Assembly (NCBI RefSeq): GCF_009914755.1
Contig: NC_060936.1
Source of the DNA: the human T2T-CHM13v2.0 reference genome, Homo sapiens
DNA: 64,000 bases
Strand: one strand, 5' to 3'
Shown here: piece after piece, positions 3,250 through 29,986 of the stretch
Numbering within the stretch: position 1 is the first letter of the stretch
Layout of the letters: every line of letters starts with the position of its first letter
Made by a program: the position numbers and the translations under genes
Notes under the pieces: generated by a model
Seen by the model: the letters and a program-made list of their open reading frames with translations, nothing else
Databases searched by the model: none
What the model was told of the DNA's origin: nothing

Positions 3250-3455
3250 TAGGTTCCAGTCCTGGCTTTGCTACTTAACCTGCTGTGGAACCTTGGTTAA
3301 ATGGTCAGCCTCTCTAAACCTTAGTTTTTTAAATCTGTGAATTGGGAATTAAAAATTTCTATGCAATAGACTTCATTCTAGGGAGAAAGTGATGAGATTT
3401 ATGCAAAACTCTTATCATAATAAAGTTTCAGTAATTGCTAACTATTATCATTAAT
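3250..3455 (+). mobile_element. MIR SINE remnant
   Basis: ggttccagtcctggctttgctactta...ccttggttaaat...cctctctaaaccttagttttttaaatctgtgaattggg resembles the MIR core. Confidence 0.6.
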
Positions 3456-4080: not shown

Positions 4081-5939
4081 CACAAGTTGTTGGACATCCA
4101 AGGTAATTATATCTCAATTCAACAGTGACTTTCCACCTTCGAATTTTGTTTCTGCCAAAGGTGTTTTCTGGCTTTAAGTAGAAGAAACCATGATATTTGG
4201 CCTAGTTTTATATTCTTGGCCATCAGAGAAACCCATGGATACCTACTGTACTATAATAATCAATGAATATACAAATCAATTCATCTATCCTCTTTCTTTT
4301 CTTTCATGAAAAATCCTGCTTATAATGTTTGAACAACTGTTCCTCTTTATTACTTTACTTCCCGCTCTTCTAATATTTTGACATCTCCTAACATCCACTT
4401 TACTTCAGTCACTTTGCTGCAGAAAAGAAAACCTGTTGAAGGAAAAAAGAAATAATGAAAAAAAAGGCAACTTATGAACTCATTGTGCTGTGTTTCAGTC
4501 TCACCTTTCAAAGTCTCAATCAAACAACACCATTAAAATTTTCATGTTCATTGTTGTGATTGCTTTCACACCCCCTCCCGGAAGGCTGCAGTTTCAGAAA
4601 GTGTAATCCTTGCCTTGCAACCTCCACACCCACCTACGTTAGCCTTCTCCTGTAATAAAGCAAAACAAGTTCTGACAGCTTGTCCTTTATCCCAGTGGCT
4701 GAATCAGGGCTCTCAATCGGTTCTGAAACATTCAAATTAGGAACTGCTGTGTCTTTGCTCTGGAGATCAATCGAAACACTTTCACAGAAGTGTAAAAATG
4801 AACCTCAGAATGGATAAACTCTAACAGAAGTCATAACCTTATCTTCTAGCAGCTCAAATTACTTTGTTTCTAAATCTCTGGACAAGAAAAACTATATTCT
4901 GGTTTAACAGAAGCATGAAATATGCCAACACATGTGCAAAAGTTTGAACTGATGGAGGGACAGAAAGAGAGTGGAAAGAGAGATGGATTCCCTGCAAGGG
5001 GTGTTAAAAATGTGTCGGGTTGGACACTGGAGTCTGGAAGACCTGTTATTATTTTTATTCCCTGCGCAAGTGGCAGCAGGTGAACTGTAGGACGCTGTCT
5101 CTTGTGCCGAGCTGATGGGTTGCAAAATTAAGAATCAGCGCCAGGCAGCCCATAGCAGAATTACAGATGGGTTTTTGGTGCTTCTCACAAAATGGAAACT
5201 ATGTAGATGGTTCCTGAAGACAGGATAGGAGCTGGTCTGATTATTAGCCGTTGCTTTTCTGAGCACCATACTCTAAGGGAAGATCATTAACAGCAGCAGA
5301 GATTTGGGGGCAGTTTTGTATTTTGCTTTTCTTAAACTTGAGTAACTATTAGGTAGGAGATTTCTAATCATGACAAAAACCTTGAAAATGAAATAAAACA
5401 CCCATATATTTCTCAATTTGAAAAGGATTTGGGAGTCAAATGTGAGCTACTGGAGGAGGAAGAGCAGAAGTTGCTTTTATTTTACCTGATGGTGCTTCTG
5501 TGACCTGCAGGATGTCTGTCATCTCATTCCACCCACAGTGACACTGAGTCACTGTAATGACTGAGAATGCTCTGGTTAGACAGGCATCAAGCATGTGCTG
5601 CAGCTGCACATGGACAGGCAGATCAGGGCACACAGGGATGAGCCCAGGTGAGAGGAATAGGAAAATTCTCTGAAGTCAGCACTGCCTGGTGGAGGACAGC
5701 ACGTGTTCTAGACAGAGTCTGGCCTGGGGAAATACACATTCTGCAGTGTTCTGGTTGAGGTGGGGCAGGGGCGGGGGTGTTACAGGAAAAAAAAAGCTCA
5801 CCATAGCTTTTTAAACCAATGGATTTCATGTGCCCCTGGGATGGAGCTGTCATGAGCTTTGTGGATTGTCTTTGCTCAGGACTCAGTAAAACTGAATCAG
5901 GGTTTGGTACTGACTGGCTGGCATCAGGACAAGGCAGCA

Positions 5940-28024: not shown

Positions 28025-28351
<327 letters not shown>

Positions 28352-28633
28352 TTATATTGTTTTTAGCCACTACATTTGTTACAACTTATTAGGGTAACGT
28401 TAAGAAACTTTTCTATTTTCCGTAGAGGCCCCGGAGCTCCTTAGCTTTGGGATAAACTGGTGCTTACCCCAACTGTGGGGTCAGAGCGTGGAAGTGAGAG
28501 AAGGGAAAGACCATCATGGTCTGCTGTGGTCAGGGAAGGCTTCCTGGAGGAGGAGAAAGTGGAGGAAGCAGCTGAGCCTGGAGGGATGGGGTCACTACCT
28601 TTAAAGCATCTGTCAGCCATGGGGATCTGATGG

Positions 28634-29275
28634 TTTTTTTATTTTTTATTTTTTATTTTTATTATTATTATTATTTTTTTACAAACCCTTGTGTGGAGAT
28701 CTGACTTTCAATAGATCGCAGCGAGGGAGCTGCTCTGCTACGTACGAAACCCCGACCCAGAAGCAAGTCGTCTACGAATGGTTTAGCGCCAGGTTCCCCA
28801 CGAACGTGCGTTGCGTGACGGGCGAGAGGGCGGCCGCCTTTCCGGCCGCGCCCCGTTTCCCAGGACAAAGGGCACTCCGCACCGGACCCTGGTCCCAGCG
28901 CGGGGCGGGGCGGCCCGCCGGCGGGGACCGGCTATCCGAGGTATCCGAGGCCATCCGAGGCCAACCGAGCCGACCGAGGCCAACCGAGGCCATCCGAGGC
29001 CGACCGAGGCCGACCGAGGCCGACCGAGGCCGACCGAGGCCATCCGAGGCCGACCGAGGCCGACCGAGGCCGACCGAGGCCGACCGAGGCCATCCGAGGC
29101 CGACCGAGGCCGACCGAGGCCGACCGAGGCCGACCGAGGCCATCCGAGGCCGACCGAGGCCAACCGAGGCGCCGCGGGGCTGCCGTATCGTTCCGCCTGG
29201 GCGGGATTCTGACTTAAGAGGCGTTCAGTCATAATCCCACAGATGGTAGCTTCGCCCCATTGGCTCCTCAGCCAA
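28634..29275 (-). pseudogene. Retrotransposed 3' fragment of 28S rRNA (SINE28/LSU-rRNA-type) with poly(A) tail
   Basis: 28681-29275 is the reverse complement of the 28S 3' end (ttggctgaggagccaatggggcgaagctacc...cacaagggtttgt); T-rich tail 28634-28680; TSD core gggatctgat at 28622 and 29277; right flank tttttt/aa fits an L1 endonuclease site. Confidence 0.95.
28933..29170. repeat. 10-bp GC-rich minisatellite (C[GA/AT/AA]CCGAGGC) x24 inside the rRNA retrocopy
   Basis: Units counted by hand; (CAT unit + 4 CGA units) repeated three times at 28991-29140. Confidence 0.97.
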
Positions 29276-29503
29276 TGGGATCTGATTTTTTAAGCAGTCA
29301 CAACACTAGACTTTTAATTGAGAAAGCTCTGTAAGCAATTAAAAGCCGCTGTTGTTTTAAACTCTTCTTGTGTCACCTGCTGGCAATGAGGAAAATGATA
29401 CATCACCTCAACAAAATGCCTCAGTGAGTTGGTACACATTTTTTATTTGCATTTTTATTTGCACATATTCTAAGATACAACCATGTCAAAGCTTCCAATT
29501 ATC

Positions 29504-29986
<483 letters not shown>

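What the first reader, a model, noticed from the sequence alone, without database searches (positions are those of the whole stretch)
28933..29170. Minisatellite born inside a 28S rRNA retrocopy: 24 x 10 bp with a 50-bp higher-order period
Seen: 24 units of C(GA/AT/AA)CCGAGGC, with (CAT unit + 4 CGA units) repeated exactly three times at 28991-29140. From recalled 28S sequence, the native antisense strand has only a doublet here (tatccgaggc-caaccgaggc), so that doublet seems to be the seed. The dominant CGA unit is a new variant that adds a CpG. Inference: homogeneous, undecayed CpG units imply recent or ongoing expansion, so the array is probably length-polymorphic. The overall layout (RNA-derived body, GC-rich VNTR, poly(A), TSD) parallels SVA. 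If other genomic copies share the array, this would be an undescribed rRNA-derived composite retroelement; if not, it is a locus-specific CpG-island VNTR.
Basis: partly seen in the sequence, partly recalled or inferred. Interest (0 to 1): 0.85.

Follow-up and report, generated by a model that had tools for sequence, protein, structure and literature searches.

The report
Tandem repeat grown inside 28S retrocopy
A stray, reverse-transcribed copy of the end of the 28S ribosomal RNA on chromosome 12 has grown a 10-base tandem repeat from two units to 24 on the spot; it is a tidy but ordinary single-locus repeat, not a new mobile element.

Summary
Window 28933-29170 holds 24 head-to-tail units of about 10 bp, including three identical 50-bp blocks.

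It lies in a minus-strand, 5'-truncated retrocopy of the last ~424 nt of 28S rRNA (28681-29275). The retrocopy has an A-rich tail, target-site duplications and a TT/AAAA nick site.

The rDNA unit aligned from this genome has only the two-unit seed. So do three other 28S retrocopies, on chr4, chr9 and chr22. A fourth, on chr17, has a decayed three-unit form.

The dominant CGA unit in tandem occurs nowhere else in this assembly: 9 of 9 exact hits are in this array. The SVA-like mobile-family idea therefore fails, and the locus-specific VNTR reading stands.

The retrocopy is already in print as "SINE28 12q24.32" (Longo 2015, PMC4994717). My searches of that paper for tandem, minisatellite, expansion or polymorphism found nothing.

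Its hg19 span is 535 bp against 595 bp here. That is exactly six units, a hint of length polymorphism, but I did not see the hg19 sequence.

Verdict: an in-situ slippage or unequal-exchange minisatellite in a known rRNA retropseudogene. Interest is low to moderate.

The parts
28622..28637 (-). Target-site duplication, copy next to the tail (+ strand GGGATCTGATGGTTTT; in element orientation AAAACCATCAGATCCC)
   Evidence: Read directly. The same 16-nt TSD pair is given for this locus in Longo 2015 Table 1.
28638..28680 (-). A-rich tail of the retrocopy, now an (AAAAAT)n/(AAT)n microsatellite. It starts directly after the mature 28S 3' end ...GGGTTTGT. The first T's overlap the TSD.
   Evidence: TRF periods 6, 7 and 9 at 28634-28680; rDNA continues with CGCGCGC... 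(3' spacer) where this copy has the A-tail.
28681..28932 (-). 28S rRNA 3' block, from the repeat site to LSU position 5034
   Evidence: query 1-231 is 96% identical to the 40 chr13 rDNA units scored. Rfam LSU_rRNA_eukarya at 28683-28785, minus strand, 37.4 bits, E 5e-07, model 3297-3399 of 3401 (below the 50-bit gathering score because it is a fragment). Alignment.
28933..29170 (-). The minisatellite: 24 units of 10 bp (two of 9 bp). In sense orientation the order is TTG, TCG, ATG, (TCGx4, ATG)x3, TTG, TCG, TTG, ATG, ATA, ATA. The native units are kept at both ends.
   Evidence: alignment to rDNA.
28991..29140 (-). Three identical 50-bp higher-order blocks (one CAT unit plus four CGA units), 30 CpGs with no change
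   Evidence: three identical 50-mers; period-50 row.
29171..29275 (-). 28S rRNA 5' block of the retrocopy, from about LSU 4611 to the repeat site; the 5' truncation point is at 29275
   Evidence: query 474-595 is 98% identical to rDNA units. Rfam hit at 29202-29313, minus strand, 35.1 bits, E 2.1e-06. Alignment.
29277..29291 (-). [quoted passage not shown] TTTTAA at 29288-29293 is the complement of the TT/AAAA L1 endonuclease-type site.
   Evidence: Read. Longo 2015 Table 1 lists EN site TTAAAA for this locus.

Best explanation
This is a locus-specific minisatellite that arose in place, inside an old L1-type retrocopy of the 3' end of 28S rRNA.

Step 1 (shown). A 5'-truncated, A-tailed copy of 28S nt ~4611-5034 was inserted on the minus strand by target-primed reverse transcription. 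It has a TSD, a TT/AAAA site, and a tail that begins exactly at the mature 3' end.

Step 2 (shown as to start and end states, inferred as to process). The copy carried the native direct doublet of expansion segment ES39, GCCTCGGTTG-GCCTCGGATA. Replication slippage or unequal exchange between the two 7-bp GCCTCGG cores first produced the hybrid ATG unit. A 10-bp in-register duplication of the native doublet gives TTG-ATG-ATA automatically. Further units followed, and a T>C change created the TCG unit (+ strand CGA).

Step 3 (inferred). A block of one ATG and four TCG units was later amplified as a 50-bp higher-order unit to three identical copies. This is much more recent than the insertion. 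The array is probably still unstable and variable in length among people.

The array does nothing known. It lies in intron 1 of a predicted lncRNA, and with the rest of the retrocopy it forms a 596-bp CpG-island-like patch.
For: Retrocopy anatomy. The rDNA 3' spacer is replaced by an A-tail, the copy is 5' truncated, and TSDs are present. The same TSD and EN site are published for this locus.

Seed: the chr13 rDNA unit aligned shows only the doublet. Three independent retrocopies that cover the site (chr4 L076, chr9 L002, chr22 L059) also keep only the doublet.

Uniqueness:
- The CGA-CGA 20-mer has 9 of 9 genome hits in this array and 0 in the reversed control.
- The three-unit pattern at <=1 mismatch has 22 hits. 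Nineteen are in this array. The other 3 (C5, C6, C11) have different spacers, and the control gives 4.
- The CAT-then-CAA pattern at <=2 mismatches has 8 hits: 7 here and 1 on chr17.

Native units survive at both edges of the array, and the degenerate 9-bp units are outer units. This is as expected for internal growth.

Recency: outside the repeat and ES39 zone the copy is 96% identical to rDNA over 336 sites, about 3-4% diverged. The central 150 bp with 30 CpGs has no difference among its three blocks. At 3.4% per site, my own arithmetic gives the chance of no change in 150 bp as about exp(-5.1) = 0.006.

Slippage-prone site:
- The chr17 copy has an independent or shared triplet.
- The chr4 copy has a 25-bp duplication next to the doublet.
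- The chr12 copy has an 11-nt deletion between TCCCC repeats.

Polymorphism hint: Longo Supplementary Table S1 aligns LSU 4611-5034 to hg19 chr12:127650452-127650987, which is 535 bp. The same LSU span is 28681-29275 here, 595 bp. The difference is 60 bp, or six units.
Against: I saw only one human haplotype. The 60-bp difference rests on published BLAT coordinates, not on hg19 sequence.

No reads were available, so assembly support and methylation are untested.

The CHM13 rDNA arrays are, as I recall, built from major unit types. If so, a rare rDNA variant with extra units is not excluded.

The chr17 copy has the same hybrid CAT/ATG middle unit and a 5' end only 7 nt away. The first duplication may therefore have been in the source RNA rather than made at this locus.

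Neither strand of the array folds better than shuffled sequence. The z-scores are +2.27 and +1.85, and 198 of 200 shuffles fold at least as well on each strand. There is thus no structural explanation for why this copy, and not the others, expanded.
Confidence: 0.85

Rival explanations
1. The first duplication (triplet TTG-ATG-ATA) was already present in the RNA that was copied. That RNA would be a variant 28S allele, or a transcribed source copy shared with the chr17 retrocopy. Only the later growth from 3 to 24 units happened at chr12.
For: The chr17 copy (L080) has different flanks and so is an independent insertion. It carries three units with the same hybrid middle unit. The sense 3' end of the chr12 array reads TTG-ATG-ATA(-ATA), the same order. 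The 5' ends are at LSU 4610 and 4617, with a third copy at 4613, in Longo Table 1.
Against: Outside the repeat, chr12 and chr17 share only 1 derived site in 314. That site is shared by all six copies compared, so it is a change on the rDNA side. By my own enumeration, any in-register 10-bp slippage starting at positions 1-2 of the spacer (2 of 10 registers) gives the same hybrid unit. The chr9 copy, of similar divergence to chr12 (94% against 96% identity to rDNA), has the plain doublet. No triplet was found in CHM13 rDNA.
Confidence: 0.3
2. The whole array was made in one step at insertion, by reverse-transcriptase stuttering on the doublet, or was inherited from an rDNA variant that already had about 24 units. 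On this view it is as old as the retrocopy.
For: None directly. The array is flanked seamlessly by 28S sequence. The retrocopy as a whole keeps CpGs well: 38 of 46 rDNA CpGs are kept. Low decay alone could therefore preserve some homogeneity.
Against: Three 50-bp blocks are identical while the flanks are 3-4% diverged. The outer units are degenerate and the inner ones identical. No rDNA unit in the assembly has more than two units. The published hg19 span differs by six units.
Confidence: 0.05
3. It is a member of a mobile, SVA-like composite retroelement family (rRNA body + VNTR + poly(A)) that spreads with its array.
For: Only the superficial layout: an RNA-derived body, a GC-rich tandem array, an A-tail and a TSD.
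Against: There is no second copy of the array in 3.1 Gb. Of the 14 other 28S 3'-end retrocopies found plus the chr17 copy, the four that reach the site have 2 or 3 units. Each copy compared is nearest to rDNA, not to another copy.
Confidence: 0.02
4. The array length or structure is an assembly artefact.
For: Not testable here; no reads were available.
Against: A 238-bp array is far shorter than the long reads that I recall were used for this assembly. An independent reference (hg19) also has about 110 bp more than the 424-nt LSU span at this locus, so an expanded array exists there too.
Confidence: 0.02

Closest known systems
SINE28 / LSU-rRNA_Hsa 3'-end retrocopies (Longo et al. 2015, Genome Biol Evol 7:775, PMC4994717)
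   Same: This very locus is listed there as 12q24.32, hg19 chr12:127650453-127650987. The entry gives LSU 4610-5034, minus strand, an (AAAAAT)n tail, a 16-nt TSD, EN site TTAAAA and 93.84% identity. The text notes that it is unusually well conserved for its length (I read passages, Table 1 text and Supplementary Table S1 text).
   Different: My term searches of that paper's main text returned 0 hits for tandem, minisatellite, expansion, repeat unit, CpG, methylat and polymorphi, so the internal array is not described. Supplement file 1 was not searchable, and the figures are not held. In my comparison the copies look like independent retropseudogenes of rRNA rather than descendants of a master SINE.
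Processed retropseudogenes of non-coding RNAs made by L1 (e.g. the human 28S retropseudogene of Wang, Pirtle & Pirtle 1997, cited; reference list only, paper not read)
   Same: 5' truncation, an A-tail at the RNA 3' end, TSDs and a TT/AAAA site.
   Different: This copy has secondarily grown a minisatellite from an internal direct repeat.
SVA composite retrotransposon (layout recalled from general knowledge)
   Same: A GC-rich VNTR between an RNA-derived part and a poly(A) tail, flanked by TSDs.
   Different: The SVA VNTR is part of the mobile unit and is shared by thousands of copies. This array is in one copy only. The element has a single source module and shows no sign of further mobilisation.
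Ordinary GC-rich human minisatellites / VNTRs with higher-order periodicity (general knowledge)
   Same: A 10-bp unit, variant units interspersed, homogeneous centre and degenerate edges, a higher-order 50-bp period, and a likely length difference between two haplotypes.
   Different: Here the ancestral two-unit state is known exactly, because the parent gene (rDNA) and sister retrocopies preserve it.

Membership tests
L1-mediated (target-primed) retropseudogene of 28S rRNA | Homology to the mature RNA only; no rDNA spacer beyond the RNA 3' end | tested here: met
   96% and 98% identity to rDNA units in two blocks. After ...GGGTTTGT the rDNA continues CGCGCGC..., while the copy has the A-tail.
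L1-mediated (target-primed) retropseudogene of 28S rRNA | A-rich tail, 5' truncation, target-site duplication, TT/AAAA-type nick site | tested here: met
   tail at 28638-28680, TSDs at 28622-28637 and 29277-29291, TTTTAA at 29288-29293. The truncation is at about LSU 4611.
SINE28 as defined by Longo et al. 2015 | 3'-LSU head under 700 bp with a simple-repeat tail and TSD; listed by the authors | tested here: met
   the 12q24.32 row of Table 1 and Supplementary Table S1. The anatomy was re-read.
SINE28 as defined by Longo et al. 2015 | Internal Pol III promoter motifs and Pol III-dependent transcription | not tested
   Claimed in the paper for the family. There are no expression data here, and I did not scan for the motifs.
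SINE28 as a true SINE family (copies descend from source copies rather than from rRNA itself) | Copies share derived changes with each other and are closer to each other than to rDNA | tested here: not met
   all six copies compared have rDNA as their nearest or joint-nearest sequence (chr12 is 96% to rDNA and <=90% to other copies; chr22 ties at 72-73%). chr12 and chr17 share 1 derived site of 314, and all copies have it.
SVA-like composite retrotransposon | The VNTR is carried by many dispersed copies with different TSDs | tested here: not met
   9 of 9 hits here; 19 of 22 hits here, and the other 3 are unrelated; 7 of 8 hits here, and 1 is the chr17 triplet.
Minisatellite / VNTR | Tandem units of about 10-100 bp, head to tail, many copies | tested here: met
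   24 units, period 10, with a higher-order period of 50.
Minisatellite / VNTR | Copy number varies among individuals | tested here: inconclusive
   The hg19 span is 535 bp against 595 bp in CHM13, a difference of 60 bp. These are coordinates only; the hg19 sequence was not seen and there are no population data.
CpG island (criteria recalled: >200 bp, G+C >50%, observed/expected CpG >0.6) | Composition thresholds | tested here: met
   28681-29276 is 596 bp with G+C 0.69, 77 CpG and o/e 1.10. The whole window has o/e 0.21. Methylation state is not testable here.

The most novel reading that the evidence does not exclude
The array may be a young, hominid- or human-specific, still-unstable CpG-dense VNTR. 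On this reading it sits in a germline-hypomethylated rRNA retrocopy, two reference haplotypes already differ by six units, and its seed was a three-unit 28S variant that no longer exists in human rDNA. That variant would be shared with the chr17 copy and would be a fossil of an extinct ES39 allele or of a real SINE28 source gene. If so, the locus gives a fully polarised, datable series for the birth of a minisatellite (2 -> 3 -> 24 units). It would also be a marker whose length and methylation might affect the host lncRNA or mis-assign rRNA reads.
Probability: 0.15. Interest if true: 0.4.

Novelty: new member of a known kind. Interest (0 to 1): 0.25.

Why it matters
It is a clean textbook case of how a minisatellite is born. 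The parent gene and four sister retrocopies preserve the two- and three-unit starting states, and the one expanded copy shows the later stages: a hybrid unit, a new CpG-creating variant, and 50-bp higher-order amplification.

On the practical side, a 600-bp, 96%-identical 28S look-alike with a variable array can attract rRNA-derived reads and confuse variant or methylation calls. I recall, but could not verify (one search found nothing), that this locus is on an ENCODE blacklist.

It does not reveal a new kind of element or a function.

Tried and rejected
1. SVA-like family. Rejected by whole-genome pattern searches.

2. chr17 as a DNA-level duplicate of the chr12 locus. I suspected this because Longo's Table 1 prints chr12's flanks as the TSD of the 17q25.2 row. 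The chr17 flanks are unrelated, so the table row appears to be a slip and chr17 is an independent insertion.

3. Hairpin-driven expansion. Both strands of the 150-bp core fold no better than shuffles.

4. Listing all non-rDNA copies that cover the site. A 25-mer search gave 236 hits, but only the first 100 are shown, and all of those are perfect matches in rDNA plus chr4. The census of site-covering copies is therefore incomplete.

5. The 8q12.1 copy (LSU 4613-4982 in Longo's table). I dropped the step, so that copy's unit number is unknown.

7. A scan of prokaryote genome contigs for a 30-mer of the array, in case of stray human contigs, found nothing.

8. Print searches. I found no paper describing the array in these searches:
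- LSU-rRNA_Hsa + chr12
- SINE28
- LSU-rRNA + VNTR
- minisatellite / retropseudogene / 28S
- es39l + 28S + variant + repeat (the passages of PMC11480859 read mention no 10-nt repeat variant in rDNA)

9. The Rfam hits are below the gathering score (37.4 and 35.1 against 50 bits). The 28S identity rests on the rDNA alignment, not on Rfam.

Full report
**What is there.**
Window 28933-29170 is a head-to-tail array. Tandem Repeats Finder gives two rows: period 10 (22.7 copies, 90% matches, score 354) and period 50 (4.7 copies, 95% matches, score 414).

My parse finds 24 CCGAG cores, spaced 10 bp apart in 21 of 23 intervals and 9 bp apart in 2. On the + strand the units are:
- 14 x CGACCGAGGC
- 5 x CATCCGAGGC
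- 3 CAA units
- 2 TAT units

The 50-mers at 28991, 29041 and 29091 are identical.

**What it sits in.**
The surrounding 28681-29275 is the reverse complement of the last ~424 nt of 28S rRNA. A search of the window's own assembly (3.1 Gb, 24 contigs) aligned query 1-231 at 96% and query 474-595 at 98% to each rDNA unit scored on contig 13. Only about 77 bp of rDNA lie between those two blocks, where this locus has 242 bp. The search scored 40 of 293 first-look candidates.

Rfam's eukaryotic LSU model hits both blocks on the minus strand, at 37.4 and 35.1 bits. Both are below the 50-bit gathering score because they are fragments.

After the mature 3' end ...GGGTTTGT the rDNA continues into spacer, whereas this copy has an A-rich tail at 28638-28680. 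The tail has since become an (AAAAAT)n/(AAT)n microsatellite.

The element is flanked by GGGATCTGAT(GG)TTTT at 28622-28637 and GGGATCTGATTTTTT at 29277-29291. A TTTTAA follows at 29288-29293. These are the marks of an L1-type target-primed insertion of a 5'-truncated rRNA fragment.

**The seed.**
In sense orientation the aligned chr13 rDNA unit reads ...GCGGAG-CCTCGGTTG-GCCTCGGATA-GCCGG..., which is a doublet.

To find sister copies I searched for the junction of the 28S end with an A-tail. It gave 70 hits at <=2 mismatches against 117 for the reversed control, so only the 11 hits at <=1 mismatch are credible on their own.

I then BLASTed 31 fetched loci against the rDNA 3' end. Sixteen loci matched, representing 15 places: this locus and 14 others. 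Three of the others reach the repeat site (chr4 L076, chr9 L002, chr22 L059), and all three keep the doublet.

A fourth copy, on chr17 (L080, fetched), has unrelated flanks. It carries a decayed triplet, sense TTG-ATG-ACA.

In the chr12 array the native TTG unit is the first unit and the native ATA unit the last before GCCGG. The growth was therefore internal.

**Uniqueness.**
- Two CGA units in tandem (a 20-mer) occur 9 times in the assembly, all in this array. The reversed control gives 0.
- Three units with any spacer, at <=1 mismatch, give 22 hits. Nineteen are here. The other three (C5, C6, C11) have one mismatch and different spacers. The control gives 4.
- A CAT unit followed by a CAA unit, at <=2 mismatches, gives 8 hits: 7 here and 1 on chr17. 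The control gives 0.

So no rDNA unit in this assembly and no other genomic copy carries the array.

One caveat, from recall: the CHM13 rDNA arrays are built from major unit types, so rare rDNA variants are not excluded.

**Relation among copies.**
I compared 337 alignment columns outside the repeat and ES39 zone.
- All six copies have rDNA as their nearest or joint-nearest sequence.
- chr12 is 96% identical to rDNA and at most 90% identical to any other copy.
- chr12 and chr17 share one derived site of 314. All six copies have that site, so it is a change on the rDNA side.

This is the pattern of independent retropseudogenes of rRNA, not of a SINE lineage with source copies.

**Age and recency.**
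The flanks are about 3-4% diverged from rDNA.

Longo et al. 2015 (passages read) state that all 27 of their loci are present in chimpanzee, and that only 18q23 and Xq25 are absent from orangutan. By implication this locus predates the orangutan split, which they date at 16 Myr. Their Figure 4, which would show this directly, is not held.

Against that age, three 50-bp blocks with 30 CpGs are identical. At 3.4% per site, my own arithmetic gives the chance of no change in 150 bp as about 0.006. The outer units are the degenerate ones. The higher-order amplification is therefore much younger than the insertion.

The retrocopy keeps 38 of 46 rDNA CpGs, with only 3 TG/CA changes. The chr10 copy has similar non-CpG divergence (5.2% against 4.1%) but keeps only 15 of 31. 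The 596-bp element has G+C 0.69 and CpG o/e 1.10, against 0.21 for the whole window. This suggests, but does not show, low germline methylation.

**Polymorphism hint.**
Longo's Supplementary Table S1 aligns LSU 4611-5034 to hg19 chr12:127650452-127650987, a span of 535 bp. The same LSU span is 28681-29275 here, 595 bp. The 60-bp difference equals six units. I did not see the hg19 sequence, so this is a lead and not a genotype.

**Mechanism.**
- By my own enumeration, an in-register 10-bp duplication of the native doublet gives TTG-ATG-ATA when the breakpoints fall in 2 of the 10 registers. This explains the hybrid ATG (+ strand CAT) unit both here and on chr17.
- A T>C change gives TCG (+ strand CGA), which adds a CpG. 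It did not arise by CpG decay, because rDNA and all four other retrocopies that reach the site have TTG at the native unit.
- Unequal exchange or slippage in 50-bp register then made the three identical blocks.
- The site is generally slippage-prone. The chr4 copy has a 25-bp duplication beside the doublet, and chr12 has an 11-nt deletion between TCCCC repeats.
- Neither strand of the core folds better than shuffles, with z-scores of +2.27 and +1.85. I found no structural driver.

**What is known.**
The retrocopy is in print as SINE28 12q24.32, with the same tail, TSD and EN site. It is described there as the second longest SINE28 yet 94% identical to LSU.

My term searches of that paper's main text returned no hits for tandem, minisatellite, expansion, repeat unit, CpG, methylat or polymorphi. 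One supplementary file could not be searched.

Four further searches found no description of the array. A paper on rDNA variation, of which I read passages only, mentions no such repeat in ES39.

**Verdict.**
This is a real, well-polarised, single-locus minisatellite inside a known 28S retropseudogene. It is very probably young in its core and probably variable in length. It is not a new retroelement family, and no function is indicated. It lies in intron 1 of predicted lncRNA LOC105370062, on the same strand (hub annotation).

**Left open.**
The unit number in other humans and apes, read support, methylation, and the state of the 8q12.1 copy are all untested.

Noticed in passing
window 28860-28932 (minus strand); L002, L056, L080; rDNA L003: Four retrocopies that span this part of ES39 and align cleanly there (chr12, chr9, chr10, chr17) lack about 40-46 nt that CHM13 rDNA has (GGGCCGCCCC[...]GCCCCGCC). 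The chr12 and chr9 junctions are the same. Either this part of ES39 grew in rDNA after the copies were made, or reverse transcriptase repeatedly skipped a GC hairpin between GCCCC repeats.
   Followed up: partly
window ~28810 (sense CGCAAC); alignment position 298: All six retrocopies compared have A where CHM13 rDNA has C. This is a substitution fixed in rDNA after the copies formed.
   Followed up: partly
L080:2283-2311 (G000:C17:78055785-78055809): The chr17 28S retrocopy has a three-unit form with the same hybrid middle unit as chr12. Its 5' end is at LSU 4617, against 4610 here. Longo's table lists a third copy (8q12.1) starting at 4613. The clustered 5' ends suggest a preferred stop or fragment end.
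   Followed up: partly
L076 ~1195-1250 (G000:C4:792266xx-792267xx): The chr4 (sd28alu) copy has a ~25-bp tandem duplication, GGCCTCGGATAGCCAGTCTCC..., immediately after the doublet. This is an independent slippage at the same site.
   Followed up: no
Longo et al. 2015 Table 1, row 17q25.2: The 25-nt 'TSD' printed for 17q25.2 is the + strand flank of the chr12 locus (window 28613-28637 and 29269-29291), not of chr17. The chr17 flanks are a CT-rich microsatellite. The same row gives the tail as (AAAAAT)n, whereas the tail region aligned from L080 is T-rich with interspersed C's.
   Followed up: yes
window 28634-28680: The poly(A) tail has turned into a compound microsatellite, (TTTTTA)n then (TTA)n on the + strand.
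   Followed up: no
window 28905-28925 (minus strand): chr12 lacks 11 nt (CGCCTGTCCCC) that rDNA and chr9 have between two TCCCC repeats, just 3' of the array in sense orientation.
   Followed up: no
window 28030-28340 and 29493-29985: Alu elements flank the retrocopy on both sides at a few hundred bp. They match Alus near the chr17 copy in BLAST but are unrelated to the finding.
   Followed up: no
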